From: an uncultured bacterium
GTDB taxonomy: Bacteria > Patescibacteriota > Doudnabacteria > UBA920
Assembly: GCA_963749445.1 (NCBI GenBank)
Contig: CAVVMJ010000010.1
Location: 254,021 to 318,020 of the forward strand
DNA: 64,000 nucleotides
Reading direction: 5' to 3'
Part shown: piece by piece, positions 1,850 through 57,776 of the stretch
How positions within the stretch are numbered: position 1 is the first letter of the stretch
Layout of the letters: each line of letters opens with the position of its first letter
Program-made: the position numbers and the translations under genes
The notes under the pieces: generated by a model
The model's database searches: none
What the model saw: the letters and a program-made list of their open reading frames with translations, nothing else
What the model was told of the DNA's origin: nothing

Positions 1850-1912
1850 CCGATCATCTAACAATTTAACAATAAAACAATATAACAATTGTTAGATTGC
1901 TAAATTGTTCAA

Positions 1913-4005: not shown

Positions 4006-4106
4006 ATTGATGGGCATCTTCGTGAATCCACAAAGTTCGCGCGATAATTATCAGTTGTTAAAAAAATATAATTTGCCTTCAAATAACCACTAAGATGCCC
4101 ATCGAG
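4006..4106. repeat. TIR-element copy D1: about 100-bp intergenic element with imperfect 19-bp terminal inverted repeats (TTGATGGGCATCTTCGTG ... CTAAGATGCCCATCGA)
   Basis: The termini are mutually reverse-complementary, and the same termini recur at 8321, 15276, 31106 and 34990. Confidence 0.7.
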
Positions 4107-8320: not shown

Positions 8321-8422
8321 GTTGATGGGAATCTTCGTGAATGTTTTACCGCCGGCCGATTTTTGTCGGCAGCGGGATAATTACCATCAGCGGTAATACC
8401 AGCAAGAAGATTCCCATCAAAC
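8321..8422. repeat. TIR-element copy D2 (GTTGATGGGAATCTTCGTG ... AAGAAGATTCCCATCAAAC)
   Basis: Terminal inverted repeats with a compensatory change (GGGAATCTT / AAGATTCCC) relative to the other copies. Confidence 0.7.
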
Positions 8423-15275: not shown

Positions 15276-15378
15276 GTTGATGGGCATCTTCTTGCGCCCA
15301 TATCGGTCAACGGATATTGGCTGGCTGATGCATCCATTATCATCAACTGTAATTTAACCACGAAGATGCCCATCAAAC
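15276..15378. repeat. TIR-element copy D3 (GTTGATGGGCATCTTCTTG ... CACGAAGATGCCCATCAAAC)
   Basis: 19-20-bp terminal inverted repeats around a unique interior. Intergenic, downstream of the MFP gene. Confidence 0.7.
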
Positions 15379-16119: not shown

Positions 16120-16213
16120 CTAAAACTTTCCAGAAAATCGGAAGTCGGAGAAATCGGAATTCCGATTTTCTAATTTATCCGATTTTCCGATTATAACCTG
16201 GACTATCTGGATA

Positions 16214-17737: not shown

Positions 17738-17791
17738 ATCCCCCGCTCCGTGTCATTGCGAGCGGAGCAAAGCAATCTCTTTTAGCAACAC

Positions 17792-26227: not shown

Positions 26228-26310
26228 GGATTACGGATTAATACGGATATACAGATAACTGCAGTATCCGTAATCCGTATATCCGTATTAAATCAGTAAT
26301 CTATAACCCT

Positions 26311-27003: not shown

Positions 27004-27096
27004 TATGAGATACCAATATACTAATACATGCGAATAATACTAATCAGTTTGCATTCGTATTATTAGTATCATTAGTACCATTGGTATATTAGTATC

Positions 27097-28230
27097 ATGA
27101 CTATGAAAATCGGCATTGTCTGCTGGCCTTCCATCGGCGGCAGCGGCGTGGTGGCCACCAATTTGGGCAATGAATTGGCCCGGTTAGGGCACCGGGTGCA
27201 TTTTATTTCCTACGAAAGGCCGTTTTTGCTCAACTTGCGGGCCAAAAACGTGTTTTTCCACCAGGTCAAAATAAACGAGTATTCGCTTTTTAAATATCCC
27301 GACTACACCCTGCCTTTGGCGGAAACCATTGTCAACGTCCAAGAAAAATATGGCTTGGATGTTTTGCACGTGCACTACGCGGTGCCGCACGCCACAGCCG
27401 CGCTTTTGGCGCGCCGCATTATGAGGCAAACCAACATTCCCCTGCCTAAGATAGTCACCACCCTGCACGGCACGGATATTACCCTGTTCGCCAGCGACAA
27501 AAGCATGTTTTCCACCATCAAATATTCCATTGAGCGCTCGCACTGCGTGACCGCGGTTTCGCAAAATTTAAAAAACCAGACCGTCAAAATTTTCAGGATC
27601 CAAAAGCCAATCCATGTAATTTATAATTTTTATAATCCGGTTTTAGTTAAAATTTCGCGCGAAAAAGTTAGACGACGGCTAAAAATCAAACCCGACGATT
27701 TCCTCGCCATCCATTTATCCAACCTCCGCCCGGTCAAGCGCATTCCGGACTTGCTTAAAATTGCCGCGCTGCTGAAAAAACAACGTAAATTTAAATTGCT
27801 AATTCTGGCCGGCGAGCCGTTTGCCAAGTACCGGCCTCTGGTAAAAAAATTGCGGCTGAATAATGTTTTGGTCAGAGAAAACGTCAAAGATATTCAAAAT
27901 TATTTAAACGCGTCCGATGCCGGCATTTACACTTCGCAGGACGAAAGCTTCGGCATGGGCATTTTGGAAACTATGTCTTACGGCAAACCGGTGCTGGCCA
28001 CGCGCGCCGGCGGCATCCCGGAAGTTATGCGCGACAAAATTGACGGATTTTTGCTCAAAATCGGCGACACCAAAAGTTTTGCGCAAAAATTGGAATTGCT
28101 AATGAATAACCCCGGGCTCACAAAAAAACTCGGCCAAAATGCCGGGTTGCGGGCCAAAGAAAAATTTTCCGCCGGCGTAATAGTAAAAGATTACGTCAAA
28201 CTCTATACCCGTACCTGCGGCAAATTTTAA
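27097..28230 (+). CDS. bshA: GT4 glycosyltransferase, BshA-like
   Basis: N-terminal MKIGIVCWPSIGGSGVVATNLGNELARLGHRVHFIS closely matches the BshA N-terminus. C-terminal GT4 EX7E region (ESFGMGILETMSYGKPVLA). Confidence 0.7.
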   Translation: MTMKIGIVCWPSIGGSGVVATNLGNELARLGHRVHFISYERPFLLNLRAKNVFFHQVKINEYSLFKYPDYTLPLAETIVNVQEKYGLDVLHVHYAVPHATAALLARRIMRQTNIPLPKIVTTLHGTDITLFASDKSMFSTIKYSIERSHCVTAVSQNLKNQTVKIFRIQKPIHVIYNFYNPVLVKISREKVRRRLKIKPDDFLAIHLSNLRPVKRIPDLLKIAALLKKQRKFKLLILAGEPFAKYRPLVKKLRLNNVLVRENVKDIQNYLNASDAGIYTSQDESFGMGILETMSYGKPVLATRAGGIPEVMRDKIDGFLLKIGDTKSFAQKLELLMNNPGLTKKLGQNAGLRAKEKFSAGVIVKDYVKLYTRTCGKF

Positions 28231-29060: not shown

Positions 29061-29969
29061 CTACTTTCTTGATTGAACTCCGTGGCCTCCAAATTGTTTC
29101 CTCAATAGTGCCACAATTTTATTGGAAAATTTTTCCTGATTTTTTTTGTCTGAGGATTCTTGACGCACTTTTAATGAATCTTCAATGACGCGCGCGTCCA
29201 CACCCAATTCTTTAGCCGCGCTCACGGTCCATTCCCCCTCGCCGGTAGCCTCGATGAATCCCGATGTTGATTCAATGTCTTCGTTTTCAAAAATATCGCG
29301 CACCAAGTCAATCAGCCAGCTTTTGATTACCGACCCTTCCTGGTAAATTTTGGTAACCTGGTTTAAATCCAATTTAAATTCACTCGCATGCAGCACGCCG
29401 TAGCCCTCAGCGATTGATTCCATCATCCCGTACTCAATGCCGTTATGCACCATTTTAACAAAATGCCCAGCGCCGTTTTTGCCGACCAGCCCATAGTTCT
29501 CTCCGGATGATAAAGCCTTCATCAGCGGCTCAATTTTTGGCCACTGCTCCTTTGGCCCGCCGACCATAAGCGCGAAACCGTTTTTTTCGCCCCACACTCC
29601 CCCGCTAGTACCACAATCATAAAACACTATCCCCTTAGCCCTTAGCCCTTCTGCCCTCCTGATGGAATCTTTATAGAAAGAGTTACCGCCGTCTATTACA
29701 ATATCGCCGGGCTTTAAATGCGGGCCGAGCTGGTTTTGCAAAAATTCGTCCACAATTTTGTGCGGCAGCATCAGCCAGAAAACTCGCGACTGATCAGTCA
29801 TATTTTTCAACAGCCGCCCAACATCAGCGAACGCCTTTACTCCGGCCTTGGCGACTTCTTCGCGCGGACCGGCCGACCGGTTCCACGCCAAAATCTCAAA
29901 CCCGCAGCTTTGCAGCCGCCGCGCAATCTGCCCGCCCATTTTGCCTAACCCAAATATCGCTACTTTCAT
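29061..29969 (-). CDS. gnd: 6-phosphogluconate dehydrogenase, decarboxylating, short (about 300 aa) NAD(P)-binding form
   Basis: Rossmann N-terminus MKVAIFGLGKMGGQIARRL plus the 6PGDH C-domain. Adjacent to zwf. Confidence 0.8.
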   Translation of the reverse strand: MKVAIFGLGKMGGQIARRLQSCGFEILAWNRSAGPREEVAKAGVKAFADVGRLLKNMTDQSRVFWLMLPHKIVDEFLQNQLGPHLKPGDIVIDGGNSFYKDSIRRAEGLRAKGIVFYDCGTSGGVWGEKNGFALMVGGPKEQWPKIEPLMKALSSGENYGLVGKNGAGHFVKMVHNGIEYGMMESIAEGYGVLHASEFKLDLNQVTKIYQEGSVIKSWLIDLVRDIFENEDIESTSGFIEATGEGEWTVSAAKELGVDARVIEDSLKVRQESSDKKNQEKFSNKIVALLRKQFGGHGVQSRK

Positions 29970-30406
29970 AACTTTATGAAATATTGGGTAATAATAAAAG
30001 TTAACGCCACGCCTTCAACCACGGCAAAAACAACGTCAAAAAAGCTGTGGCCGCTGAAGTCCAGTAAAATTTTGTCCTTGATGATTGTCCGCAAAGCAAG
30101 GTCTTGGCTTTTGGCAAAATAGCTTTCAAAAATCAGCTCCCGCTTGTGATCTTCCAACAGGCCGTAAATGATTATCAGCGCCAAAAACAGGCAAAAACCG
30201 AACAGTGCGCCAAGTCCCTGGCTCAAACCGACTAAATACAGCGCCGAGGTCAGCACCGCCGTATGCGCGCTGGGAAAGCTGCCGACCCACAAGACCGACC
30301 AGGAAAAACGATTGTCGAGAATGTTCCGCCGGCGCTTAAGCAGCACAAAAAATTTAATCAGCTGGTTAACAATATAGACTATCAGCGGCACCAAAATGAA
30401 TTTCAT
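29966..30406 (-). CDS. divergent PAP2 (DUF212, YuiD-like) family membrane protein
   Basis: 146 aa with a GSFPSAHTA motif and 3-4 TMS. Confidence 0.5.
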   Translation of the reverse strand: MKFILVPLIVYIVNQLIKFFVLLKRRRNILDNRFSWSVLWVGSFPSAHTAVLTSALYLVGLSQGLGALFGFCLFLALIIIYGLLEDHKRELIFESYFAKSQDLALRTIIKDKILLDFSGHSFFDVVFAVVEGVALTFIITQYFIKL

Positions 30407-34989: not shown

Positions 34990-35090
34990 TTGATGGGCAC
35001 CTTCGAGGTTGTAGTTTAGTTGACGGTCATAGACGCGCTGATTAATGAAAATCGACAAACCTATTTTGTCGCACGAAGGTGCCCATCAAG
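34990..35090. repeat. TIR-element copy D5 (TTGATGGGCACCTTCGAGG ... CACGAAGGTGCCCATCAAG)
   Basis: Terminal inverted repeats with compensatory substitutions (GGGCACCTTCG / CGAAGGTGCCC). Confidence 0.7.
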
Positions 35091-35161: not shown

Positions 35162-35392
35162 ATGAGCTATTACGAACACCACAAGCGTTCCCTGGCAAAA
35201 ACCATTGGTTTCCACACCTTAATAATTTTGGCGGATTTAGTCGTGGTTTTTGTCATTACCCACCAATACCAAATCACCATCAGTATAATCTTGTTTACCA
35301 ATTTGATGAGCGGCTTGATTTACTTTTTGCACGAACGCGCCTGGAACCGCATCCACTGGGGGAAAAGCAGTTTGGAAATAGAGTTAAAATAA
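35162..35392 (+). CDS. DUF2061-family small membrane protein
   Basis: 76 aa with two TM helices. Matches the DUF2061 pattern (HKRSLAKTIGFHTL ... FLHERAWNRIHWGK). Confidence 0.5.
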   Translation: MSYYEHHKRSLAKTIGFHTLIILADLVVVFVITHQYQITISIILFTNLMSGLIYFLHERAWNRIHWGKSSLEIELK

Positions 35393-35394
35393 CA

Positions 35395-35455
35395 ACAACG
35401 ATAACTATAACCATAACCATAACCATAACAAAACCAGCCGTTATGGTTATTTTTT
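35395..35455. terminator. bidirectional terminator preceded by an (ATAACC)x4 microsatellite
   Basis: ataaccataaccataaccataacaaaaccagccgttatggttattttttatt. Confidence 0.5.
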
Positions 35456-35459
35456 ATTG

Positions 35460-36482
35460 TTATTGTTCTTTACCTTTTATATCGGTTCTGTAGATACCCA
35501 CCAGGGCCACAAAAATTGCCATCAAAATCGGGCCGAGCAAAACGCCCAAGACACCGAAGCTGACTACCCCGCCCAAAATGGCGAAGATAGTCAACAGCGG
35601 GTGCAGGCGGACCCGGGCCGAGACCAGCTTGGCCGCCAAAACGTTGTCAATGAGCGCCACTGAGGCCGCGGCCCAAATGGCCATGCCCACTGCCGCGCCA
35701 AAATGGCCGGTGACATACAAAAAACCGATGGCCGGCAGCCAGACCAAAGACGTGCCAAAGGTCGGCACGAACGCGGCCACGAACATTGCGCAACCCCACA
35801 ACAGGCTGTTGGGCAGCCCAAAAATCGAAAAACCGATAAACGCGGCGGTGGAAATGGACAGCACCACCAAAAACTGACCCTTGATTACGCCGCTCACCGC
35901 CTGGGTGAGTTTGTTGAACAAGATATTTTCGTTGGCCGCGGACAAAGGCAAAATATCTTTCAATAATTTTTTTATGGCGTCACCGTCGCGCAGCAAAAAG
36001 AAAGTGGAAAACGCCACCACAACCAAAGAGCCAAACAGCCAGCCCAAAGATGATAGCAGGCCGGAAAGCGAGGCGAACGCCTGGCTCGTAAGCTGGGCCA
36101 CCCATGCGTGAATGTCAACATTAAAGCTAATGGCTAATTGCTGCAAAGGCTGGGGCAAGCTGTGCACAAAAGCGCTGGACTGCCCGGGCAAATTACCCAG
36201 GTTCAGGGACCTATAAAAATTCGCCAACTCAAAAAATACCTGCTGGCCAATCAGCAGCACCGGCCCGGCAATGATGATGGCGATCAGCAACACCACAAAG
36301 CCCGCGTTTAAATTGGGCGCTTTGAGATGCCGCTCCAGGCGTTCGTAAAGCGGATGGAACAACACGGCCAAAATCAAGGCAAAAGCCAGCAGCTCCCAAA
36401 ACGGCCAAAAAATCTTTAATACGATTAGCGCCGCCGCCGCCAGCAGCACAAAGAACCCGATGGTTTGTGTTTTTTGTTTCAT
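35460..36482 (-). CDS. AI-2E family transporter (PerM/YhhT, UPF0118)
   Basis: 340 aa, 7-8 TMS, with AI-2E-like topology and motifs. Confidence 0.7.
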   Translation of the reverse strand: MKQKTQTIGFFVLLAAAALIVLKIFWPFWELLAFALILAVLFHPLYERLERHLKAPNLNAGFVVLLIAIIIAGPVLLIGQQVFFELANFYRSLNLGNLPGQSSAFVHSLPQPLQQLAISFNVDIHAWVAQLTSQAFASLSGLLSSLGWLFGSLVVVAFSTFFLLRDGDAIKKLLKDILPLSAANENILFNKLTQAVSGVIKGQFLVVLSISTAAFIGFSIFGLPNSLLWGCAMFVAAFVPTFGTSLVWLPAIGFLYVTGHFGAAVGMAIWAAASVALIDNVLAAKLVSARVRLHPLLTIFAILGGVVSFGVLGVLLGPILMAIFVALVGIYRTDIKGKEQ

Positions 36483-36753
36483 TTTAGATGATACTGATAT
36501 ACGGATTAATACGGATGATACCGATAATACTAATACGGTTAAATATCCGTATTATCGGTATTATCAGTATGCATCAGTATATCGGTATCTCATGTATATT
36601 ATAGCAAATTATTGACATTATTGTAAATTAATGCTATATTTTAAGCTACTTCCCGAAAAGTAGCGCGGGATTTTTTAGTGAACTAATTAAAAACAATTTC
36701 GAATTGCGTATTACGAATTCTTAATCCGTAATGCGTAATCCGTAATACTCAAA

Positions 36754-38706: not shown

Positions 38707-38751
38707 TTTCAATGTGTCATTCCGGCCTCCGAGCCGGAATCTATCTTTAAG

Positions 38752-43799: not shown

Positions 43800-43875
43800 T
43801 TTCTGTCATCCCGGAATTTTTCACGCAGGCGATTATCATCAGTCGTGAAAAATATCCGGAATGACACTGAAATGC
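43800..43875. repeat. GTCATCCCGGAAT...ATTCCGGAATGAC hairpin element (family C)
   Basis: gtcatcccggaatttttcacg ... cgtgaaaaatatccggaatgac inverted repeat. Related copies at 54655..54720 and 38712..38740. A variant (gtcattgcgagcgg) at 17755..17785. Confidence 0.55.
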
Positions 43876-45261: not shown

Positions 45262-45588
45262 CTATTGGGGTGTGGCGCCCGCCGGAGCCGGCGCGGCCGC
45301 GGGGTTAAAAGGATCTCTGGTCAGGCCGCCGCTGGGCTGGAAATTTTGCCCGCTTTGGATGCGCTGGACGTCATAATCATAATCCGAAAAATTTATCCTC
45401 GCCCCGGGTCCGGCGGCGGAAACCGGGGCAATCTGGTTTTCCAGCTTAATGACCATGTCAATGGCGTCCTTGGCGACCAAACCGTCCATAACCAATACCA
45501 CCAGCAAAATCGCCAAAAACAAATAACGGACGTCAAATTTGAAGTGGCGGAGGTCTTTTAAATTAAGATTGGCGGAGAGGTTCTTCAT
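45262..45588 (-). CDS. PilP-like type IV pilus assembly protein
   Basis: 108 aa. N-terminal TM and an RDPF motif near the C-terminus. Last gene of the pilMNO(P) operon. Confidence 0.45.
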   Translation of the reverse strand: MKNLSANLNLKDLRHFKFDVRYLFLAILLVVLVMDGLVAKDAIDMVIKLENQIAPVSAAGPGARINFSDYDYDVQRIQSGQNFQPSGGLTRDPFNPAAAPAPAGATPQ

Positions 45589-45702: not shown

Positions 45703-46245
45703 CTAATGGCTGCGGATATAGAGGGTGGCGCTAATGGCGGCATTGACCGTGCCGCCGGCGCCGGTTAGATTTAAAGAGTTCAGGCTGACGGCAAAATCCA
45801 GATTTTCCAAATTCTCAACGGTGTCCACCACCTTGCTGAAAGAGCCGTTAATTGAAATGCTCACCGGGATCAAATAAAGCGGGCTTTTGGTCGGGGCTTT
45901 GGGTACGCTCCCGATGGTGCCGCTAATTCCTCCCAAAGTTAAGCTCACGCCCCGGACATTGCCCAAATTCTCAAAAACCTCAATTTCTTTAACCAAGGTA
46001 ATGTCTTGGCTAAAAAAATCTATCGGCTGAAGGGATTTGGCTTTCATGTCGTTCAAATCCTGCAGGGCCAACTGATAATTTTTGTCTTCCGCCTGTAAAG
46101 CCAACAACTGGTTCTTTTGTTTGGAAATTTGCGCCAAAGCGGCGCGGTTAGACTGGTCCAGAATTTTAAAACCGTACAAAAACATCGCCCCGCAAAGGCC
46201 CAGCCACAACACGGCAGCAAGATAAATTTTAGTCCTAATACTCAT
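45703..46245 (-). CDS. pilO: type IV pilus assembly protein PilO
   Basis: 180 aa. N-terminal TM plus coiled coil, then a periplasmic domain. Operon position after pilN. Confidence 0.6.
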   Translation of the reverse strand: MSIRTKIYLAAVLWLGLCGAMFLYGFKILDQSNRAALAQISKQKNQLLALQAEDKNYQLALQDLNDMKAKSLQPIDFFSQDITLVKEIEVFENLGNVRGVSLTLGGISGTIGSVPKAPTKSPLYLIPVSISINGSFSKVVDTVENLENLDFAVSLNSLNLTGAGGTVNAAISATLYIRSH

Positions 46246-46282: not shown

Positions 46283-46837
46283 TCACTTCAGCAGGCTGTC
46301 AACCACTTGAAAAGTGAAGTGGAAAGAATCATTTTTCGGCGCGGCCACGTTCTCCAAAGGGTAATCTATACCATAAAACTCCTTGCTGTCGGCCAAGATA
46401 TTATTATAGAGCTGGATGACGACGTCCCGGGTTGAGGCGGTACCGGTTATGATGATTTTTTTGCTTTGAAAGTCCGGGGCAAAAGAGCTTATGACCACGC
46501 CCGGGGGCGGCAAAACCGCAAACGCCTTTAAGACCTTGGACCATTTGGGAATACCCGAAGACAGGTCCTTATAGTCAGTAATGTAATTATTGATATCCGC
46601 AATATCTTTTTTCGTGCTGGCATTTTCCTGCCTTTTGACCTGGCTTTGCAGCTGGGCGATGCTGGCCCCGATGGAAGTCGCCTGGTTTTGCAGATACAGT
46701 TTGACGCCAAACTGCGCGCCAACCACCAAACCAAAACCCAGCACGCTGTAGCCCATCAGCGCGAGCAGCGCCCGAAACACGGCTTCCTGCTCGAGGAGCT
46801 TTTGACGGGCCGGCGGCAACAAATTGATAATTTTCAT
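46283..46837 (-). CDS. pilN: type IV pilus assembly protein PilN
   Basis: 184 aa. N-terminal LLPP/arginine segment (MKIINLLPPARQKLLEQE) and TM, typical of PilN. Confidence 0.65.
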   Translation of the reverse strand: MKIINLLPPARQKLLEQEAVFRALLALMGYSVLGFGLVVGAQFGVKLYLQNQATSIGASIAQLQSQVKRQENASTKKDIADINNYITDYKDLSSGIPKWSKVLKAFAVLPPPGVVISSFAPDFQSKKIIITGTASTRDVVIQLYNNILADSKEFYGIDYPLENVAAPKNDSFHFTFQVVDSLLK

Positions 46838-46857
46838 AAATCGTTAGGCATTTAAAA

Positions 46858-46916
46858 AATTCTCTAATTCTCTAATTCTCTAATTCTCTAATTCTCTAAT
46901 TCTCTAATTCTCTAAT
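46858..46916. repeat. tandem octanucleotide repeat (TCTCTAAT) x about 6.5 in the pilM-pilN spacer
   Basis: Read directly: ttctctaattctctaattctctaattctctaattctctaattctctaattc. Confidence 0.9.
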
Positions 46917-47967
46917 TCAACCCGCGCATGGCCAATCCCACGGCAGTGGCAAATCCCAAGGATTCGCCCGGATCTAAAGGCTGCGACTTTAACCCCAAAA
47001 TCCCCTGCCAGGGATTGCCCAGCTCCACGGGCGGGCTGCCGAACTCGCTGAACTGCGGGCTTAAAAACTCGGGCAAATTTTTTAGCCGGGCGGCGCCGCC
47101 CGCCAATAAAATTTTCTTAACCTGCTTGCCGGAATGCTCGCCGTGGAACCTTAAAATGCTTTTGATCTCCGCGCTGAGATTGTTCAGCACCGGCAGTAGC
47201 GCGATTTTGATATTCGGGTAGTCGGCGGTGTTGGCAATACCCACTTTCTTTTTGATTTCCTCGGCCTTGACGTTGGATACACCCAAAATTTTGGCAATAT
47301 TCTCGGTAAAATTATTACCGGCAATGGGCACAGTGGAAGTGAACTGTAAATTTCCATCCTCCACCATGACCAGGCTGCTGCGAAACGCGTCCAAATCCAC
47401 AATCAATACCGTGTCCCGGCCGCCGGGCGGCAATAATGCCCGCAGGCAGCTTTGCGACTCCACCTCCAAGGCCGCAGCCTTGACGCCGGCACTGTCCAAC
47501 AGCGACAAATATTGGTCCACAAAATCCTTTGGGGAAGCCACAATTAAAATATTAAGCTTGCCCTCGCTGCTGCCGATTTTTTGCCAGTCCAAATCGACCT
47601 GGTCCACGGGCAAAGGGATAAAACTTTCGGCTTCCACCGGCACCGCGGACTGCGCCTCACTGTCGCTCATTTGGGGAATCTGAATAACCCGGACAAAGGA
47701 CTTGGATTCCGGAAGGCTGACGACGGCGTAATCAGTGTGCAGCTGCCCGTGCTGGCACTTCTGCAAACTGGCTTTCAACATTTGGCTAAAGGCTTTGCCG
47801 TCGGCAAAAGCTTCGTTGACTATCATGCCCTTAGGCAGCGGCACGTCGCTAAAGGCGCGCAGTTTGACTTCCTTGCCGCTCTTGCCCAGCTCCAAAATCT
47901 TCAAGGCGCTGCCGCTGACGTCCAAACCAAAGGCTTTTTTTTGATTGCTAAACAGTTGCCAGGACAT
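46912..47967 (-). CDS. pilM: type IV pilus assembly protein PilM (actin-like ATPase fold)
   Basis: 351 aa, with PilM/FtsA-like motifs throughout. Confidence 0.8.
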   Translation of the reverse strand: MSWQLFSNQKKAFGLDVSGSALKILELGKSGKEVKLRAFSDVPLPKGMIVNEAFADGKAFSQMLKASLQKCQHGQLHTDYAVVSLPESKSFVRVIQIPQMSDSEAQSAVPVEAESFIPLPVDQVDLDWQKIGSSEGKLNILIVASPKDFVDQYLSLLDSAGVKAAALEVESQSCLRALLPPGGRDTVLIVDLDAFRSSLVMVEDGNLQFTSTVPIAGNNFTENIAKILGVSNVKAEEIKKKVGIANTADYPNIKIALLPVLNNLSAEIKSILRFHGEHSGKQVKKILLAGGAARLKNLPEFLSPQFSEFGSPPVELGNPWQGILGLKSQPLDPGESLGFATAVGLAMRGLN

Positions 47968-48185
47968 ATTTACCCGCCTAAATTTGCAATTAGCTATAAA
48001 TAATTTTTAAATTTGATAAATCCAATCCAATTAGACTCTATTTCCTAAACCCAGAGCAAATTTCGGCGGGTTAACTCCGCCTAAATTTTGCCTTAGTTTG
48101 TAAAGTTTATTTTTAATTCCACCCACTAAACTATTATTTTTGCAAAGATGATAAAAATTTCGCAAAATTTTGGCGGGTAAATTAA
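47968..48185. promoter_or_regulatory. conserved leader element of about 210 bp (copy E1), upstream of pilM
   Basis: Block-wise conserved with 51635..51860 (upstream of pilB). Shared blocks: TTTACCCGCCTAAATTTGC, AAATCCAATCCAATTA, GGCGGGTTAACTCCGCCTAAATTTTGCC, TTTTGCAAAG, TTTTCGCAAAATTTTGGCGGGTRAATT. Internal GGCGG/CCGCC dyads. Confidence 0.7.
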
Positions 48186-49393
48186 TTAATATTCTGCGCT
48201 ATCTGGTAAATCGGCGCAATCAGCGCCATGGCCAGCACGCCCACCACGCCGCCGATCACCAACAGCAAAAGCGGTTCAATAATGGACGACAGGTTCTTGA
48301 GGGTGTCATCGACTTGGCCTTCATAATGCTCAGCCAACTGGCCTAACATATCTTCCACCGTGCCGCTCTCCTCCCCCACCTCCAGCATCTGCACCACAAT
48401 GACCGGAAACAAATTGGGATCTTTGCCCAGCGACTCGGTTAAGGGCTTGCCTAACTTGACGTCAACCGCGGCTGCTGCGACCAAGTCTTGATACCAGACA
48501 TTGCCCATGGAATCAGCCGAAACTTCCAAACCCTGGACAATGGGAATGCCGCTTTTCAGCAGGGAGCTCAAAATGCGCGCAAACCGCGCCAGATTAATTT
48601 TTTTGATAATGCCGTTAACGACCAAAAAATGCAGCAGCAGCCAGTCAAGGACCCGTCCTCCGAAAGAAGTTCTGATAAAAGCTATTACTCCCGCCACCAA
48701 ACCGAACATCAGCCCGATGACCAGCGCCGCGTGATGGCTCATAAAGTCAGAAAAAGCGATGACGACTTTGGTGGTAAGCGGTAAATCGCCGGTGCCGAAG
48801 TCCGAAAGCGTGGAGGTTAAGCTGGGCAGGACGAAAATTGACAAAAACACGCCGATGATAATCATAGCCGAAACAATTACCGAAGGATAAATCATGGCGC
48901 CCCGAACCTTGGAACGCAGGTCGGCGTCTCGCTGCAGCTGGATGGTCAAATATTCCAAACTCTTTTCCAAATTTCCGGAAATCTCGCCGACTTTGATCAT
49001 GCTCACAAAAATGTTAGAAAAATTATGCGGATATTTACTAAGAGCCTCGCCCAGGCTTTTGCCCGATTCCACCTGCCCGGCAATATCGCTTAATATGTTC
49101 TTAAACCTGGGGTTTTTGGTCTGCTTGACCTGAATGCTCAAGGCTCGGCTGACCGCAATTCCGGCTTTGAGCATAATGCCCAAATTTTCCGCAAAGCCTA
49201 TCTTTTCCGCAAAGCTGACCGTGCCGAGTTTCTGCAATTGGTCCAAAAACGAAAGCCCCTTGTGTTCCTCCAGCAAAGTCGGCAGAAGGCCCCGCTCTTT
49301 CAGCAAATGGCCGGCGGCGGCCAAATTGCCGGCGGCAATCATGCCGCTTTCGCGGTGCCCGTCTTTAGTTATGGCGTTATATGTAAAATCCAT
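48182..49393 (-). CDS. pilC: type IV pilus assembly / type II secretion platform protein PilC (GspF family)
   Basis: 403 aa with two T2SSF repeats and three TMS. Confidence 0.85.
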   Translation of the reverse strand: MDFTYNAITKDGHRESGMIAAGNLAAAGHLLKERGLLPTLLEEHKGLSFLDQLQKLGTVSFAEKIGFAENLGIMLKAGIAVSRALSIQVKQTKNPRFKNILSDIAGQVESGKSLGEALSKYPHNFSNIFVSMIKVGEISGNLEKSLEYLTIQLQRDADLRSKVRGAMIYPSVIVSAMIIIGVFLSIFVLPSLTSTLSDFGTGDLPLTTKVVIAFSDFMSHHAALVIGLMFGLVAGVIAFIRTSFGGRVLDWLLLHFLVVNGIIKKINLARFARILSSLLKSGIPIVQGLEVSADSMGNVWYQDLVAAAAVDVKLGKPLTESLGKDPNLFPVIVVQMLEVGEESGTVEDMLGQLAEHYEGQVDDTLKNLSSIIEPLLLLVIGGVVGVLAMALIAPIYQIAQNIN

Positions 49394-49438
49394 TGTGGGA
49401 TTGACAAGAATTAAAAGATTTAAATGATTGACAAGAAT

Positions 49439-49828
49439 TTAAGACAATTTGCCCGGGTGATTTTTTATTGAAGTATTTCTGGAAGACGTCATAATGGCAG
49501 TTAATTCATCAGCTTCCTTAAGCAAATCTTGAACTAAAGAAAGCGGAACTACGCCTGACGCGACCAAAAGTTCCAGCCAGCCCAAAGTCTCGTCAGCCTC
49601 TTCAACCACGGTACCCATTTTTGAAATAAAATCCTTGGCTGACTTACATCTGCATACCGCTCGATAATTACCGAAAACACCCGTACCAGAACGTAAAACC
49701 TGGTCGCCCAGCTTCCTTCCGACATTGCCGCAATTCTTTTCCAAATACTGGGCAAGTTTTATAATCTTAATTGCGAATTGTTTTGTTTTTTCCTTTAATT
49801 CTTTTGGATCCATAATTTTTAAAATCAT
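49439..49828 (-). CDS. four-helix-bundle protein (formerly 23S rRNA intervening-sequence protein family, PF05635)
   Basis: 129 aa. LAQYLEKNCGNVGRKLGDQVLRSGTGVFGNYRAVCRCKSAKDFISKMGTVVEEADETLGWLELL is the family pattern. Inserted between pilB and pilC. Confidence 0.8.
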   Translation of the reverse strand: MILKIMDPKELKEKTKQFAIKIIKLAQYLEKNCGNVGRKLGDQVLRSGTGVFGNYRAVCRCKSAKDFISKMGTVVEEADETLGWLELLVASGVVPLSLVQDLLKEADELTAIMTSSRNTSIKNHPGKLS

Positions 49829-49882
49829 GTCGCCGCTTCAATCATGTCAATCTTTTAAATCATGTCAATCTTGTCAATCACA

Positions 49883-51634
49883 CTACTCTTTGCTCACCCG
49901 CACAATTTCTTCCACCGTCGTTATCCCCTTGGCCGCTTTTATAAAACCGTCCTCCCACATCAAAACCATGCCCTCCTTTTCCCCCTGCTCCTGGATTTCC
50001 GGCGCGCTATTGTGGGCCATGATCATCTGCGAAATGGCCGGGCTGACTTCCAGAATTTCGTGGATGCCGACGCGGCCGCGGTAGCCGGTATGGCTACACT
50101 TGTCGCAGCCTTCGCCTTTGAAAAATTGGATGTCCGCCAATGATTTGGCTTTTTCGGGCGCCGCACCGCGCCGCGCCAAAACCGGCAGGAGTTTTTCCAA
50201 ATGGAATTGCTTGGCCAGGCTGCCGAGCACAACCTCGTCCAGCTTAATGGCCGCTTTGCAGTCCTTGCAGATCACGCGGACCAGGCGCTGCGCCAGCACC
50301 GCGTTGATGGTGGAAGAGATCAAGTAAGGCTCCACGCCGATGTCCAAAAGCCGGGGCAAAGCCGAGGCCGCGTCGTTGGTGTGGAGAGTGGAAAACACAA
50401 TGTGGCCGGTCATGGCCGCGTGTACCGCTTCTTCGGCCGTTTCCTTGTCGCGGATTTCGCCGATCATAATGATATTCGGGTCCTGCCGCAGAAGCGCCCT
50501 TAGGCCGATGTCAAAAGTCAGGCCGATTTTGGGGTTGATTTGCATCTGGTTGGCGCCGACCAGCCGGTATTCCACCGGGTCTTCAATGGTGGAAATGTTC
50601 ACGCTCTTGGTATTCAGCATGCTCAAGACCGTATACAGCGTGGTGGATTTGCCGCTGCCCGTGGGGCCGGTCACCAGCATCATGCCGTGCGGCTTTTTGA
50701 TGTTGCGCGTAATCAGGTCAATGCCTTCCGGCTCAAAACCTAAATCTTCCAAAGACGCGGCCTTGGCTGACTCGTCCAGCAGGCGGATGACGACTTTTTC
50801 CCCGTCGAAAATCGGGATCGCGGACACGCGCATGGAAAATTTATAGCCTTCCTTTTCAATCTTAAACCGGCCGTCCTGGGGCAGGCGATGCTCGTCAATT
50901 TTTAAATTGGTCAAAACCTTGATGCGCGCCACAATCGCCGCCTGGATGACTTTGGGCAAAGTCATAACGTCATGGAGCACGCCGTCAATGCGGTAACGGA
51001 CAATCACCGCATTCTCCTGCGGCTCAATGTGGATGTCGGAAGCTTTTTCAAAAATCGCATACTCAATTAACGTGTCCACCACGCGGATGACGGGGATTTC
51101 CTCGGCCATTTTTTTCAGGCCGTCCTCGGCGCTCTCCCCTTCCGGACTGGCTTTCAACGGCTTGTCGGAACCTGTGAACAGGTGTTTGATTTCCTTTTCC
51201 AGGCTGGAGTGGTATTTGGACAGGCCGAACTCCAAACTGCTTTTGCCAATGAGAAAAATTTTAATCTTCAGGCCGGTCTTTTTTTGGATGAATTCCTTGG
51301 TCTGCAGGTCCGACGGGTCGGTCATAGCCAATGACAGGTCTTCCTTGGTTTTGGCGAAACTGATGACCTGATGACGATGGGCAATCGGCTCGGGCACCAG
51401 ATTGAGCACGTCCTGGGCAATGGTTTCGTTGCGCAAATCCACCACCGGCGCGCCCGTGGCTTCGCTTTTTATGGCCAAAAGCTGGTCTTCGGTCACGATT
51501 TTTTTCTCAACCAAAAAATCTTCCCACGACGTAGGCGCCTTTTGGGAATTTAAATCCTTTTCCAGCTGGGCGATGCTGGCATCGGTCAAAAGCTTTTTGC
51601 TTTTTAACACTAAATTGAGTTCCTTTTTATCCAT
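49883..51634 (-). CDS. pilB: type IV pilus assembly ATPase PilB (GspE family) with N-terminal GSPII_E_N domains
   Basis: 583 aa. Walker A GPTGSGKST, Asp and His boxes, and a tetracysteine motif (CKDC...CDKC). Confidence 0.9.
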   Translation of the reverse strand: MDKKELNLVLKSKKLLTDASIAQLEKDLNSQKAPTSWEDFLVEKKIVTEDQLLAIKSEATGAPVVDLRNETIAQDVLNLVPEPIAHRHQVISFAKTKEDLSLAMTDPSDLQTKEFIQKKTGLKIKIFLIGKSSLEFGLSKYHSSLEKEIKHLFTGSDKPLKASPEGESAEDGLKKMAEEIPVIRVVDTLIEYAIFEKASDIHIEPQENAVIVRYRIDGVLHDVMTLPKVIQAAIVARIKVLTNLKIDEHRLPQDGRFKIEKEGYKFSMRVSAIPIFDGEKVVIRLLDESAKAASLEDLGFEPEGIDLITRNIKKPHGMMLVTGPTGSGKSTTLYTVLSMLNTKSVNISTIEDPVEYRLVGANQMQINPKIGLTFDIGLRALLRQDPNIIMIGEIRDKETAEEAVHAAMTGHIVFSTLHTNDAASALPRLLDIGVEPYLISSTINAVLAQRLVRVICKDCKAAIKLDEVVLGSLAKQFHLEKLLPVLARRGAAPEKAKSLADIQFFKGEGCDKCSHTGYRGRVGIHEILEVSPAISQMIMAHNSAPEIQEQGEKEGMVLMWEDGFIKAAKGITTVEEIVRVSKE

Positions 51635-51860
51635 TTACCCGCCTAAATTTGCGGTTACCCACAAATAATTTTTAAATTTATTCAAAATCCAATCCAATTA
51701 ATTCAAACTCTGTTTGTTATCAGGGCAAATTTTGACGGGTTAACTCCGCCTAAATTTTGCCCAAATTGGCAAATTTATATTCTCAACCGCCAAAATTGTC
51801 ATTTTGCAAAGCTTATCGAGAGTTTTCGCAAAATTTTGGCGGGTGAATTTTTTGTTTCAA
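51635..51860. promoter_or_regulatory. conserved leader element of about 210 bp (copy E2), upstream of pilB
   Basis: See 47968..48185. Confidence 0.7.
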
Positions 51861-52493: not shown

Positions 52494-53807
52494 CTAGCGG
52501 CCTTGCCAGGTAAAAATATAATACAAGGTCTTTAGGATAATCTCCAAGTCAAACAGTACGCTGCGGTGCTTAATGTAATACAAATCGTACTGCAGCTTGA
52601 GCCTGGTTTCCTCCAGACTGGCGGCGTAGACGTTGTTGATTTGCGCCCAGCCGGTCAGTCCCGGCTTGACCAAATGGCGCTCGTCGTAAAACGGGATATG
52701 CTGTTTCAGTTCTTCAACGATGTGCGGCTGTTCCGGCCTCGGTCCGACCAAACTCATATTGCCAAGCAGCAAATTAATAAACTGCGGCCACTCGTCAACG
52801 CGCGACATGCGCAAAAAGCGCCCAACTTTGGTAATGCGCGGGTCATTAGCGCTTGTCCAGGTATTGGTCGCTCCCCACGACTGCATAGTGCGGTATTTAT
52901 AAACCTTGAAGACTTTGTTGTTTTTGCCTACGCGCTCTTGGACAAAAAAAATCGCGCCGCGCGAAGTGAACTTAATCAGCAAAGCAATCACGGGAAAAGT
53001 CACGGCAAAAACTACGCCGGCAGTCAAGCCGACAACCAAATCGATTATTCTTTTTAATAAATTGTAAAACCGTTTCTCTCGGTAATCGATGTTTTCCAAA
53101 AACCACAGCTCGCTGATCTGGGACAAATAGACGCGGCGCAGCAAGCTTTCGTAAAAATCCTTGTAATTGTAAAAATCCACTCCCGACCGCCTGAGCTCGT
53201 AAAATTTCTTCAGCACCTCCGGCCGCTCGCCTAAATTGTCGGGCAAGACAATGGCCGCGCCTTTGGAAAGCGCCGCCTCGGGCAGGCTCTGGCCGCTGAT
53301 GTGCCCGAGCACCCTAAAACCCAAATAGTTGTGGTGCGCGATTTCCTGCTCCAGCTCGCGCAGTTCGTTGTTAAAAGAAAACAAATACACGCCTTGGGAA
53401 ATCCGGTTCTTGATTAAATACTTAATGAGCAGGTGCCAGCCCAAAATCAACACGAAAGAGACGGCCGCGTCAATCAACAAAAACCTTCTGGGCGTGAAAA
53501 TCAGCAACGGCTGGAAGTAGAAAAAAATGATGGCCGCCAAAACGTTAAACATCATGGCGGAAACCAGGCTGAACACCAGACTGGTGTAACGACGCAGGGA
53601 AGAAAAATCAAACAAGCCGTGGATAAAAAAAATCACGGCCCAGACCAAATAAATCAAGGAAAACAGCCGCAGATGGTTTAGCCAGACCAAAGGCGAAAGG
53701 CCGCCGCCGTAGCGGATTTGAACCGTCAACCACAAACTTAAATAGAGCAGCAGGACGTCGGGCAGCAGGATGATGAGAAAATTTTTGGGCTTATTTACGC
53801 TGGCCAT
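52494..53807 (-). CDS. polyprenyl glycosylphosphotransferase (bacterial sugar transferase, WbaP/CpsE-like), initiating enzyme of exopolysaccharide synthesis
   Basis: 437 aa. N-terminal TMS, and a C-terminal Bac_transf domain (VGKNNKVFKVYKYRTM ... DEWPQFINLLLGNMSLVGPRPE). Confidence 0.85.
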   Translation of the reverse strand: MASVNKPKNFLIILLPDVLLLYLSLWLTVQIRYGGGLSPLVWLNHLRLFSLIYLVWAVIFFIHGLFDFSSLRRYTSLVFSLVSAMMFNVLAAIIFFYFQPLLIFTPRRFLLIDAAVSFVLILGWHLLIKYLIKNRISQGVYLFSFNNELRELEQEIAHHNYLGFRVLGHISGQSLPEAALSKGAAIVLPDNLGERPEVLKKFYELRRSGVDFYNYKDFYESLLRRVYLSQISELWFLENIDYREKRFYNLLKRIIDLVVGLTAGVVFAVTFPVIALLIKFTSRGAIFFVQERVGKNNKVFKVYKYRTMQSWGATNTWTSANDPRITKVGRFLRMSRVDEWPQFINLLLGNMSLVGPRPEQPHIVEELKQHIPFYDERHLVKPGLTGWAQINNVYAASLEETRLKLQYDLYYIKHRSVLFDLEIILKTLYYIFTWQGR

Positions 53808-54654: not shown

Positions 54655-54720
54655 CTGTCATTCCGGATATTTTTGCCTGCTTCCGGGACATCATCGGCAG
54701 GCAAAAATATCCGGAATCTA
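54655..54720. repeat. GTCATTCCGGATATTTTTGCCTGC...GCAGGCAAAAATATCCGGAAT hairpin element (family C)
   Basis: Perfect long inverted repeat, visible directly. Confidence 0.6.
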
Positions 54721-54816
54721 GGATTGTACTATTCCTTGTTTCTGGATCCCGCATATTTTTTGGACTGATGAATACCCTTTAGCCAAAAAATTGTGGGATG
54801 ACACTAAGTGGATTGA

Positions 54817-55446
54817 CTAAAGGAAATTCTGGGATCTCGGATCTTTTGCCCAAGCCTGAACGGTTAAGCCGCCGCGGTCTTTATCGGAAATCAGCAAGCC
54901 AGGACTTTTTAAAACCTGTACAAACTTTTTGTGCAAACCCGACTCGCACAAAGACCAGTCAATGTCCTTAGACAACGGCGAAATCCCCTCTTCGCAATCG
55001 GGATTATATTCTCCGGAACAAAAATACTCAATCGCCGTTTCCTCCAAGTAAAAATTCCCGTGGGCGAACCCCGGCGGCAGCCAAATCCATTCCGAAAAAT
55101 CGTTTCTGGGATCCTGCGGCATATTGTACATAATGGCTTTGCCGTAAGCCAGCGAATTTTTGCGGATATCCATCGCAACGTCAATCATGTGGCCAAAAAC
55201 CGTGCGCACCAGTTTGCCGACATAAGGGTTCCACTGGAAATGCAGCCCGCGCGCCGTGCCTTTGCGGGAATAGCTTTCGTTGCTTTGGACAAAATTAACA
55301 TTGCGGATAAAATCCAGCTCCGGCTTGCCGCGAAAATCGCTCTCCCGCCACGGCTCGCTGAAATATCCGCGGCGGTCCAAAAACCTGCCAAACCGGATAA
55401 CCTTGACCTCCGGAAAAACCAAACTTTTTACTTCCAAAATTTTCAT
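54817..55446 (-). CDS. dTDP-4-dehydrorhamnose 3,5-epimerase family protein (RmlC-like cupin)
   Basis: RmlC motifs: FxDxRGxFxE-like (FLDRRGYFSEPW), RGLHFQ, and LPPGFAHG. Confidence 0.75.
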   Translation of the reverse strand: MKILEVKSLVFPEVKVIRFGRFLDRRGYFSEPWRESDFRGKPELDFIRNVNFVQSNESYSRKGTARGLHFQWNPYVGKLVRTVFGHMIDVAMDIRKNSLAYGKAIMYNMPQDPRNDFSEWIWLPPGFAHGNFYLEETAIEYFCSGEYNPDCEEGISPLSKDIDWSLCESGLHKKFVQVLKSPGLLISDKDRGGLTVQAWAKDPRSQNFL

Positions 55447-56564: not shown

Positions 56565-57776
56565 TTATTTATCTTTCTTGCCCCACTTTTTTATGGCCGC
56601 GTCGTATTCTTTGCCGTAGTTGCCGTCTATGGCCTGCCTCATGGCGCGGACGCCGGCTAAGGTGCCCATGGGGTGGGAGGTTAGGGCGCCGCCGACGTTG
56701 GCCATCCAGTTGGCATGGCCGACTTCGGCTTTAATATACTCCACGAGCCCAGGCTGCATACCGCAGCTAAGTGCCGGCACACAGTTAATATCGTTAAGAT
56801 CCTGGATAATGCGCTTGGTGCGCTCGGTTTCGTCGTTAAGATAGCCGCCGATCATGCCCACATGCAAAGTACTGCAGCCGCTTAAACCGGCCAGGTTAAA
56901 AATTACCCGCTCGTTAATGTTATAGGGACCGGTATTTAAAACTTTGTCCCCGCTTTTTTGGAAATGCATAAGCAAAGGCAAATCCAGTTCGCGCAGGGAT
57001 TTATAAACCCCTAAACCGCAATGGAAATTTATATGGATGCCGTTACCGCCCAAATCCGCCACCAATTTGGCCCGCTTTAAAATATGCGCGGGGTCGGAAC
57101 TCATGGACACGCAATAAAAAACTTTGGCGCCGCTGTCCCTTAAATATTCCATAACCAGCGGCACGCGTTTTTCTATGGGGCAATGCGCCGGATCGGACAA
57201 AATTTCGTCTTCCTTGATAAAATTACAGCCCCCGTCTATAAGCTGTTTGACCAAATCCAAGTGCCGCTCCGGCGACAGCCCGACTTTGGGCTTGACTATG
57301 CCGCCGAACAAAATTTTATTTTCCGGGACGCCGCAATATTCCTTCATCTCCCGCAGGCCTACTTTAGGTCCCAAAAGGCACTTGCGCATATTCGGGGTCA
57401 ACCGGACATCCAGCAGCTCGCAGCCCTCAATGATGTCTATGTCCATTTGTCCCCCCATGGTTTGCACCAGGAGCTGAGAGACGCCGTCAGTCTGGAAATT
57501 AATATTGGCTTCCGGAAAGGCAATCTGCACCGTCCCCTGCTTTAAGCGCTCCAGACTTTTTTCATCGCTGAGCACCAGGCAGGAATGGTGCTCAAACAGC
57601 TCATCGGTTTCAAATTCCGAACGGTTTTTGGGATTGCCCACCGACTGGCCGATGGCCAAATCCCACGCCGCGTCCCTTAAGTTGGTCTGGCTTTTTAAGC
57701 GGTAAGTCGCGATGTAATATTTATTAAAAAATTCTTCCGAAAGCTCGGAGCTCGATCCCCGAAAAATATCAATCAT
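56565..57776 (-). CDS. RuBisCO large-subunit family protein, probably a RuBisCO-like protein (type IV RLP)
   Basis: Strong match to the RuBisCO core LFGGIVKPKVGLSPERHLDLVKQLIDGGCNFIKEDE (KPK, carbamylation Lys and acidic metal ligands present). The HIHRA-equivalent segment reads IHINFH, so the catalytic His/Arg look substituted. About 403 aa, shorter than bona fide RuBisCO. Confidence 0.65.
   Translation of the reverse strand: MIDIFRGSSSELSEEFFNKYYIATYRLKSQTNLRDAAWDLAIGQSVGNPKNRSEFETDELFEHHSCLVLSDEKSLERLKQGTVQIAFPEANINFQTDGVSQLLVQTMGGQMDIDIIEGCELLDVRLTPNMRKCLLGPKVGLREMKEYCGVPENKILFGGIVKPKVGLSPERHLDLVKQLIDGGCNFIKEDEILSDPAHCPIEKRVPLVMEYLRDSGAKVFYCVSMSSDPAHILKRAKLVADLGGNGIHINFHCGLGVYKSLRELDLPLLMHFQKSGDKVLNTGPYNINERVIFNLAGLSGCSTLHVGMIGGYLNDETERTKRIIQDLNDINCVPALSCGMQPGLVEYIKAEVGHANWMANVGGALTSHPMGTLAGVRAMRQAIDGNYGKEYDAAIKKWGKKDK

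What the first reader, a model, noticed from the sequence alone, without database searches (positions are those of the whole stretch)
46858..46916. Octanucleotide microsatellite (TCTCTAAT) x 6.5 between pilM and pilN
A perfect tandem 8-mer tract sits in the 70-bp spacer between the pilM stop and the pilN start. Tracts like this expand and contract by slipped-strand mispairing. In this position they could modulate pilN-pilO-pilP translation or termination, giving phase-variable piliation. That is uncommon outside host-associated bacteria and would be notable in an environmental, episymbiotic-style organism.
Basis: partly seen in the sequence, partly recalled or inferred. Interest (0 to 1): 0.55.

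Follow-up and report, generated by a model that had tools for sequence, protein, structure and literature searches.

The report
Young octamer microsatellite after pilM stop
A perfect 8-base repeat really does sit between two pilus-assembly genes of an uncultured Doudnabacteria (CPR) genome, but it looks like a recent replication-slippage expansion in a spacer and not a switch that turns pili on and off.

Summary
The repeat is real. It is a perfect 8-nt tandem array, window 46858-46918, 61 bp and 7.6 copies (not 6.5). The unit is GAATTAGA on the coding (minus) strand. It is the highest-scoring short-period array in about 690 kb examined.

It is not wholly intergenic. The first unit supplies the last Asn codon and the TAG stop of pilM. 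The array ends 20 nt before the pilN ATG, and the stop-to-start spacer is 74 nt.

Relatives show a derived expansion. The closest one (PilM 87% identical) has a 27-nt spacer with no repeat, and the window carries a 48-nt (six-unit) insertion there. Further relatives have 24-nt and 11-nt spacers.

No copy-number change can alter PilM or PilN, because every unit carries a stop codon on both strands. No promoter-like or terminator-like site lies in the tract. The RNA is unstructured. Modelled copy numbers from 0 to 20 barely change accessibility of the pilN start.

Copy-number polymorphism could not be tested, because only one genome of this species is on record.

Best reading: a young, probably near-neutral microsatellite in a lineage whose spacers are rich in short tandem arrays. 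Slippage origin is supported. Phase-variable piliation is not.

The parts
46858..46918 (-). Perfect octanucleotide tandem array, (GAATTAGA) x 7.6 on the coding strand (AATTCTCT on +). It has TAG in every unit on the minus strand and TAA in every unit on the plus strand.
   Evidence: TRF score 122, 100% matches; sequence read directly; 16-mer count 6 against 0.01 expected.
46912..47967 (-). pilM (351 aa). Its last codon (AAT) and stop (TAG, 46914-46912) are encoded by the first repeat unit.
   Evidence: Pfam PilM_2 E = 7.2e-44; the C-terminus ...AMRGLN* is shared with relative L092.
46838..46857 (-). Non-repeat remainder of the spacer (TTTTAAATGCCTAACGATTT), directly upstream of the pilN ATG. 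It has no Shine-Dalgarno-like motif. It contains a 5-codon mini-ORF (ATG at 46851) whose TGA overlaps the pilN ATG.
   Evidence: Sequence; SD scan.
46283..46837 (-). pilN-like gene (184 aa), starting MKIINLLPP.
   Evidence: Sub-threshold Pfam PilN hit, E = 0.055; 72 homologues at E <= 1e-20, several named 'Tfp pilus assembly protein PilN' by JGI; conserved position after pilM in all relatives.
45703..46245 (-). pilO-like gene (180 aa), next cistron downstream.
   Evidence: Weak Pfam PilO hit, E = 0.0032, below the cut-off; conserved position in relatives.
45262..45588 (-). 108-aa ORF, last cistron of the presumed pilMNO operon. No family match was found.
   Evidence: No Pfam hit even at E <= 10; an ORF of similar size follows pilO in relatives.
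47968..48181 (-). Upstream region of pilM, presumed promoter and leader of the pilM-N-O unit. It is a near-duplicate of the region upstream of pilB (51635-51850), which places the tract inside an operon and not at its promoter.
   Evidence: 84% identity over about 215 nt, up to the start codons.

Best explanation
The tract is a young, lineage-specific microsatellite. An 8-nt unit at the pilM stop codon (GAATTAGA followed by GAATT, a natural slippage seed) was amplified by replication slippage, adding six units (48 nt). This stretched an ancestral spacer of about 25 nt to 74 nt. In the pilM-pilN-pilO mRNA it forms an A-rich, C-free, unstructured stretch with a stop codon in every frame. Its only predictable effect is to move the pilN start further from the pilM stop, so pilN must be initiated de novo instead of by termination-reinitiation coupling. 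This organism seems able to do that, since few of its genes have Shine-Dalgarno sequences. Gain or loss of units should change spacer length only, with little or no effect on pilus production. The tract is most likely near-neutral. It fits a general tendency of Doudnabacteria spacers to accumulate short tandem arrays. Shown: existence, perfection, position, derived status, absence of promoter, terminator and structure signals. Inferred: slippage mechanism, co-transcription, near-neutrality.
For: Perfect 7.6-copy array. The alignment with L092 (PilM 87%, PilN 82% identical) shows a clean gap of six units, with conserved flanks on both sides. A relative with 74% PilN identity has a 24-nt spacer by gene coordinates, and L016 (76% PilM) has 11 nt. 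Other relatives range from overlapping genes to about 200 nt, so spacer length at this site is tolerated. The pilM stop lies in unit 1 and TAG or TAA occurs in every unit, so no ORF depends on copy number. No promoter-like or terminator-like site lies in the tract on the coding strand. RNA fold z-score is 0.10. Modelled copy numbers 0-20 give pilN start accessibility of 0.34-0.43 with no switch. An SD-like motif precedes only 7 of 67 ORFs. 18 of 21 tandem arrays lie in the 15% of the window that is non-coding. Array density is 0.27-0.33 per kb in the window and in Doudnabacteria relatives, against 0.11-0.15 per kb in control loci. The unit is not a dispersed motif.
Against: It is an outlier among the lineage's arrays. 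It is perfect, has the most copies, and has no inverted partner array. That could mean recent origin, or selection for perfection or hypermutability. Near-neutrality is inferred, not measured. The assembled copy number may be collapsed. No read-level or strain-level data were available. The RNA accessibility model ignores ribosome coupling, RNA-binding proteins and RNases.
Confidence: 0.6

Rival explanations
1. Contingency locus or rheostat. Slippage changes the number of units, and with it the pilM-stop to pilN-start distance, or the binding of some factor. This would tune PilN/PilO output relative to PilM and give heritable but reversible variation in piliation within the population.
For: A perfect tract of more than 7 units is the kind of sequence that slips (established knowledge of SSRs). 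It has demonstrably expanded in this lineage. It sits in a pilus operon, and PilM binds the PilN N-terminus, so stoichiometry could matter (own knowledge). In Haemophilus influenzae, the number of 7-bp repeats upstream of hmw1A/hmw2A grades expression (PMC2424069).
Against: It is not in an ORF and not in or next to a recognisable promoter. The 20-nt pilN start context is outside the repeat. Modelled accessibility is flat across 0-20 units. Relatives tolerate spacers from overlap to about 200 nt. No other long perfect SSR occurs in the 64-kb window, so there is no 'phasome'. No polymorphism data exist.
Confidence: 0.12
2. Functional intercistronic RNA element. The A-rich, C-free, unstructured tract would act as a ribosome standby or S1 landing platform, or a spacer against occlusion. 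This would support Shine-Dalgarno-independent de novo initiation at pilN. Selection would act on having a long unstructured stretch, not on its variability.
For: SD-like motifs are rare in this genome (7 of 67), and pilN has none. The tract is 50% A and 0% C on the mRNA strand and is predicted to be largely unpaired. Accessibility of the pilN start rises slightly from 0.34-0.37 at 0-2 units to about 0.40-0.43 at 5 or more units.
Against: The closest relatives manage with spacers of 11-27 nt or with overlapping genes, and no tract. The modelled gain in accessibility is small. Nothing requires a perfect repeat for this role.
Confidence: 0.15
3. Assembly effect. The tract is real, but its length or perfection in the contig is a product of de Bruijn graph traversal. 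This would be a collapsed longer array, or a consensus that hides unit variants.
For: 61 bp falls in the window k to k+7 expected for a minimal traversal at k=55 (inference). The k=31 Logan unitig L001 breaks exactly k-1 = 30 nt into the repeat, which shows that assemblers do stumble here.
Against: Both flanks are syntenic with all relatives, and two assemblies agree on the junction sequence. The tract therefore exists, and only the copy number is in doubt. A 61-bp tract is easily spanned by 150-nt reads.
Confidence: 0.08

Closest known systems
SSR-driven contingency (phase-variation) loci of Neisseria and Haemophilus, especially the 7-bp repeats upstream of H. influenzae hmw1A/hmw2A
   Same: A perfect short-unit tandem tract next to a surface-structure gene. 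The unit length (7-8 nt) is not a multiple of three. In hmwA the tract is non-coding and repeat number grades expression (PMC2424069).
   Different: The hmwA repeats lie within the promoter region, and copy number (9-28) varies among isolates. Here the tract is intercistronic, downstream of a stop codon, with no promoter-like site, no predicted effect of copy number, no polymorphism data, and no repeat in the nearest relative.
Cyanobacterial STRR (short tandemly repeated repetitive) heptamer arrays
   Same: Tandem arrays of 7-nt units in intergenic and intercistronic spacers, for example between hupS and hupL. Their function is unknown, and proposed roles are transcript stability or translational coupling (PMC2670836). 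The Doudnabacteria spacers in general resemble this, with short-unit arrays that are often hairpin-forming.
   Different: As I recall, STRR units are a few families dispersed over many loci, and they can form hairpins. This unit is not dispersed, the tract has no inverted partner, and it has no significant fold.
Perfect tandem repeats of Borg extrachromosomal elements
   Same: Perfect, at least 50 nt long, A-enriched on the coding strand, and lineage-specific and recently formed. Intergenic units are often not divisible by three, and the first unit often lies within a gene end (PMC9879509). All of these descriptors fit this tract.
   Different: Borg repeats are pervasive along an archaeal element, and about half are in ORFs. 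Here there is one such perfect tract in 64 kb of a bacterial chromosome. The resemblance is descriptive, and no common mechanism is implied.

Membership tests
Simple sequence repeat (microsatellite) | Head-to-tail perfect copies of a short (1-10 nt) unit, in more copies than chance allows | tested here: met
   7.6 perfect copies of an 8-mer, TRF score 122; 6 matches against 0.01 expected.
Simple sequence repeat (microsatellite) | Copy number differs between related lineages (expansion or contraction in whole units) | tested here: met
   The insertion relative to L092 is exactly six units, with conserved flanks. Relatives have spacers of 24 and 11 nt.
SSR contingency / phase-variation locus | The tract lies inside an ORF, so that unit changes shift the frame | tested here: not met
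   Only the last 7 nt of pilM overlap the tract. The stop is in unit 1, and every unit carries TAG (minus strand) or TAA (plus strand), so neither PilM nor PilN changes.
SSR contingency / phase-variation locus | Or the tract lies in or next to a promoter (between -35 and -10, or at a regulator site), so that copy number changes transcription | tested here: not met
   No sigma-70-like site in or flanking the tract on the coding strand. The tract is internal to the pilM-N-O unit, whose upstream region is 47968-48181. The consensus scan is crude, so this is not absolute.
SSR contingency / phase-variation locus | Copy-number heterogeneity within a population or among strains | not testable with these tools
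   PilM, PilN, PilO and PilC are singleton 90% clusters. The only other record is a k=31 unitig that ends inside the repeat. No reads are available.
SSR contingency / phase-variation locus | Copy number alters expression of the adjacent gene | tested here: inconclusive
   In silico only. The unpaired probability of pilN -20..+13 is 0.34-0.43 for 0-20 units. No experiment was possible.
STRR-like dispersed tandem arrays | The same unit recurs as arrays at many loci of the genome | tested here: not met
   AATTAGAS occurs 5 times outside the tract against 2.8 expected. It is absent from 160 other loci.
STRR-like dispersed tandem arrays | The array can form a hairpin (array plus inverted array) | tested here: not met
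   There is no excess of inverted units within 150 nt: one inverted-unit match, reached by 72.5% of shuffles. The fold z-score is 0.10. Many other spacers in the window do meet this feature.
Type IV pilus PilM-PilN-PilO alignment-complex operon | PilM (actin-like ATPase fold) followed by PilN with the N-terminal INLLP-type motif, then PilO | tested here: met
   PilM_2 7e-44. PilN starts MKIINLLPP, has a weak Pfam PilN hit, and has homologues named PilN. PilO has a weak hit. The gene order is conserved in relatives.

The most novel reading that the evidence does not exclude
The tract is a genuinely hypermutable locus in a CPR (Doudnabacteria) bacterium. Its unit number would vary within the population and tune the PilN/PilO : PilM ratio, and hence piliation. 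That would be a contingency-type rheostat acting on intercistronic distance in an SD-poor, environmental episymbiont. It would also be the youngest visible stage of a lineage-wide process that builds Doudnabacteria intercistronic spacers out of short tandem arrays, which later acquire inverted partners and become hairpins.
Probability: 0.1. Interest if true: 0.6.

Novelty: new member of a known kind. Interest (0 to 1): 0.25.

Why it matters
Type IV pili are thought to be central to how CPR bacteria attach to hosts and take up DNA (own knowledge). A stochastic switch on pilus assembly in an environmental CPR lineage would therefore extend contingency-locus biology beyond host-adapted pathogens. 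The evidence here argues against a switch: the tract cannot change any protein, and no promoter-like site was found in it. As it stands this is an ordinary, if unusually clean, microsatellite. It is useful mainly as a strain marker, and as a warning that short-read assemblies may break or collapse at this point. The broader pattern seen around it may be the more interesting lead. Doudnabacteria spacers are built from short tandem arrays and array hairpins, and some of these enclose small ORFs.

Tried and rejected
(1) Copy number in other strains or samples. Exact-protein look-ups found no PilM record and only one extra PilN contig, a k=31 Logan unitig that starts 30 nt inside the repeat. Cluster look-up showed singletons. 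This was uninformative.

(2) Scans of genome and metagenome contigs for relatives found none carrying the unit. The nearest relative lacks the tract. The contig of the 74%-identical PilN gave gene coordinates but no DNA.

(3) Promoter or terminator in the tract: none on the coding strand. I checked by eye for -10/-35 combinations created by the 8-nt phasing and rejected them: GAGAAT is only 4 of 6 and has no compatible -35 at 16-18 nt.

(4) RNA structure or switch: fold z = 0.10, and no dependence on copy number.

(5) Known RNA family: Rfam reports only tRNAs in the window.

(6) Dispersed motif, uptake sequence or regulator site: the unit is not enriched elsewhere.

(7) Hidden inverted partner array, as in other spacers: none.

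(8) Small ORF within the tract: impossible, because there are stops in all six frames.

(9) A rut-like, C-rich and G-free antisense reading of the + strand was considered. It is pure speculation and was not pursued.

Full report
**Observation**

The window carries a perfect tandem array of an 8-nt unit at 46858-46918. It is 61 bp long and has 7.6 copies, 100% matches and TRF score 122.
- A 16-mer of two units matches six times against 0.01 expected in dinucleotide-preserving shuffles.
- No other short-period array approaches its score. The next best is 78 in the window, and 73-74 in about 630 kb of related and control loci.
- An independent k=31 assembly of run ERR10755942 (L001) encodes an identical PilN and begins 30 nt (k-1) inside the same repeat. 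The repeat is therefore real, but that record says nothing about copy number.
- 61 bp lies in the range k to k+7 that a k=55 assembler would emit for a longer collapsed tract. The copy number may be a lower bound (inference).

**Anatomy**

All genes here are on the minus strand:
- pilB: 49883-51634, T2SSE 1.5e-129.
- A 129-aa protein of the 23S_rRNA_IVP family: 49439-49828.
- pilC: 48182-49393.
- pilM: 46912-47967, PilM_2 7e-44.
- A PilN-like gene: 46283-46837.
- A PilO-like gene: 45703-46245.
- A 108-aa ORF: 45262-45588.

The PilN call rests on four things: the N-terminal MKIINLLPP, a sub-threshold Pfam PilN hit, homologues that JGI names PilN, and conserved gene order.

On the coding strand the junction reads ...CGC GGG TTG AAT TAG AGAATTAGA..., so the array is not purely intergenic.
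- Its first unit encodes the last Asn codon and the TAG stop of pilM (46914-46912).
- The array ends 20 nt before the pilN ATG (46837).
- The stop-to-start spacer is 74 nt.
- Every unit contains TAG on the coding strand and TAA on the other strand, so all six frames are closed within 24 nt.

No gain or loss of whole units can therefore alter PilM, PilN or any other ORF.

**Organism and relatives**

PilM relatives place the window in Candidatus Doudnabacteria (Patescibacteria/CPR). The pil proteins are singleton clusters at 90% identity in a 15-billion-protein collection. They are known only from one 372-kb contig plus the Logan run, so no second strain exists to compare.

The pilM-pilN spacer in relatives:

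| Relative | Identity to window | pilM-pilN spacer | Repeat |
|---|---|---|---|
| L092 (JGI contig) | PilM 87%, PilN 82% | 27 nt | none |
| Logan contig carrying P0006 | PilN 74% | 24 nt (from gene coordinates) | no DNA held; spacer too short for the tract |
| L016 | PilM 76% | 11 nt | none |
| More distant Doudnabacteria | lower | overlapping genes to about 200 nt | none |

L092 has the same PilM C-terminus (...AMRGLN*). Its junction reads ttgAATTAA|AAAGATTTTTTAGCG...ATG. Aligned to it, the window has a clean gap of six units between conserved flanks. The unit occurs in none of the 160 other loci fetched.

The tract is therefore a derived, lineage-specific expansion. It was seeded at the pilM stop, where GAATTAGA followed by GAATT forms a natural slippage seed.

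**Tests of a regulatory role**

- The consensus scan finds no sigma-70-like promoter and no intrinsic terminator in or flanking the tract on the coding strand.
- The spacer RNA folds no better than shuffles (z = 0.10).
- Rfam reports only tRNAs in the window.
- I rebuilt the pilM-end/tract/pilN-start RNA with 0 to 20 units. The mean unpaired probability of pilN -20..+13 stays between 0.34 and 0.43, with no threshold.
- The unit is not a dispersed motif: 5 occurrences outside the tract against 2.8 expected.
- About 215 nt upstream of pilM is an 84%-identical duplicate of the region upstream of pilB, right up to the start codons. This suggests that pilM-N-O has its own leader there and that the tract is internal to the operon.

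**Genomic context**

- Shine-Dalgarno-like motifs precede only 7 of 67 ORFs. Many starts sit 6-12 nt after a TATAAT-like box. This points to SD-independent, often leaderless-type initiation, so uncoupling pilN from pilM termination by a longer spacer is probably tolerated.
- Short tandem arrays are a general property of this lineage's spacers. 18 of 21 arrays (score >= 40) lie in the 15% of the window that is non-coding.
- Array density is 0.33 per kb in the window and 0.27-0.29 per kb in Doudnabacteria relatives. It is 0.11-0.15 per kb in Fibrobacter, Actinomycetota and other control loci.
- Most of those arrays are degenerate (70-90% matches, 5 copies or fewer). About ten have an inverted partner array within 150 nt, forming AT-rich hairpins.
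- The pilM-pilN tract differs. It is perfect, has the most copies, and has no inverted partner. That fits a very recent origin.

**Interpretation**

- Best explanation (confidence about 0.6): a young microsatellite produced by slippage at the pilM stop. It lengthens an intercistronic spacer from about 25 to 74 nt, and is probably near-neutral.
- Rival, contingency locus or rheostat on pilN expression (about 0.12): there is no ORF or promoter for it to act on, the modelled effect is flat, and no polymorphism data exist.
- Rival, selected unstructured A-rich landing pad for SD-independent initiation (about 0.15): close relatives do without it.
- Rival, assembly effect (about 0.08): this concerns the copy number only, not the existence of the tract.

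**Comparison with known systems**

- It is a member of the general class of bacterial simple sequence repeats.
- It fails the architectural criteria of SSR contingency loci, since it is in neither an ORF nor a promoter. This is unlike, for example, the 7-bp hmwA promoter repeats of H. influenzae, whose number grades transcription (PMC2424069).
- It resembles cyanobacterial STRR heptamer arrays in being an intercistronic short-unit array (PMC2670836). It lacks their dispersal and hairpin potential.
- It matches the descriptive traits of Borg perfect tandem repeats: perfect, A-rich, first unit in a gene end, lineage-specific (PMC9879509). It lacks their pervasiveness.

**Verdict**

The slippage origin is supported. 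Phase-variable piliation is not supported, and cannot be fully tested without reads. Novelty is a new member of a known kind. Interest is about 0.25.

Noticed in passing
window 1859-1917, 2645-2759, 16140-16192, 26228-26300, 27004-27098, 35389-35467, 36483-36600, 36680-36753; also pilB-pilC spacers of L005, L006, L013, L015, L016: Many intergenic and intercistronic spacers are built as a tandem array of a 6-10-nt unit, a short loop, and then a tandem array of the reverse-complement unit, which gives long AT-rich imperfect hairpins. The unit differs between spacers and between species. An array hairpin at the pilB-pilC spacer nevertheless recurs across Doudnabacteria. This resembles cyanobacterial STRR hairpins. 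I found no description of it for CPR in the paper library.
   Followed up: partly
window 49394-49438 and 49829-49882, flanking ORF 49439-49828; L008, L014, L017 at the same position: Between pilB and pilC, two inverted arrays of a TTGACAAGAT-like unit flank a small ORF (129 aa here, Pfam 23S_rRNA_IVP 6.8e-11). The ORF therefore sits in the loop of an array hairpin. L014 and L017 have a 103-107-aa ORF between similar arms, and L008 a 95-aa ORF between arms of a different unit. L014 also carries the same unit in its pilM-pilN spacer. This recalls ORFs inside rRNA intervening-sequence hairpins.
   Followed up: partly
window 4007-4105, 8322-8420, 15277-15376, 31107-~31205, 34990-35089: Five copies of an element of about 99 nt, with conserved 18-nt terminal inverted repeats (TTGATGGGCATCTTCGTG ... 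CACGAAGATGCCCATCAA). The interior, about 60 nt, is not conserved but has constant length. The 18-mer matches 9 times against 0.04 expected. The stem shows a few compensatory changes. All copies are intergenic, and two start 5-8 nt after a stop codon. It could be a MITE-like element, a terminator, or a structured RNA family. It is unassigned.
   Followed up: partly
window 47968-48181 and 51635-51850: The regions directly upstream of pilM and pilB are 84%-identical duplicates of about 215 nt. Each contains three copies, in mixed orientation, of a GCAAA(A)TTTAGGCGG motif. Both end in GGCGGGTAAAT just before the start codon. This looks like a shared promoter, leader or regulator-binding module for the two pil transcription units.
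   Followed up: partly
window-wide; e.g. upstream of 6201, 12460, 29966-30406(-), 52494-53807(-), 54817-55446(-): Shine-Dalgarno-like motifs precede only 7 of 67 ORFs. Many start codons lie 6-12 nt downstream of a TATAAT-like box, which suggests widespread leaderless or very short-leader mRNAs.
   Followed up: partly
window 46851-46834 (minus strand): A 5-codon mini-ORF (ATG CCT AAC GAT TTA TGA, MPNDL*) lies between the tract and pilN. Its TGA overlaps the pilN ATG in an ATGA arrangement. It is not conserved in L092, so it is probably fortuitous.
   Followed up: no
window 56613-56976 (+): ARAGORN calls a permuted tmRNA here. The call lies inside a 403-aa minus-strand ORF (56565-57776), and Rfam finds no tmRNA at gathering threshold. 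It is probably a false positive.
   Followed up: no
window 43800-43870, 54660-54725, 38707-38740, 17745-17775: Several spacers carry hairpins that begin with a shared GTCATTCCGGA/GTCATTGCGAG-type arm, a REP-like palindromic family.
   Followed up: no
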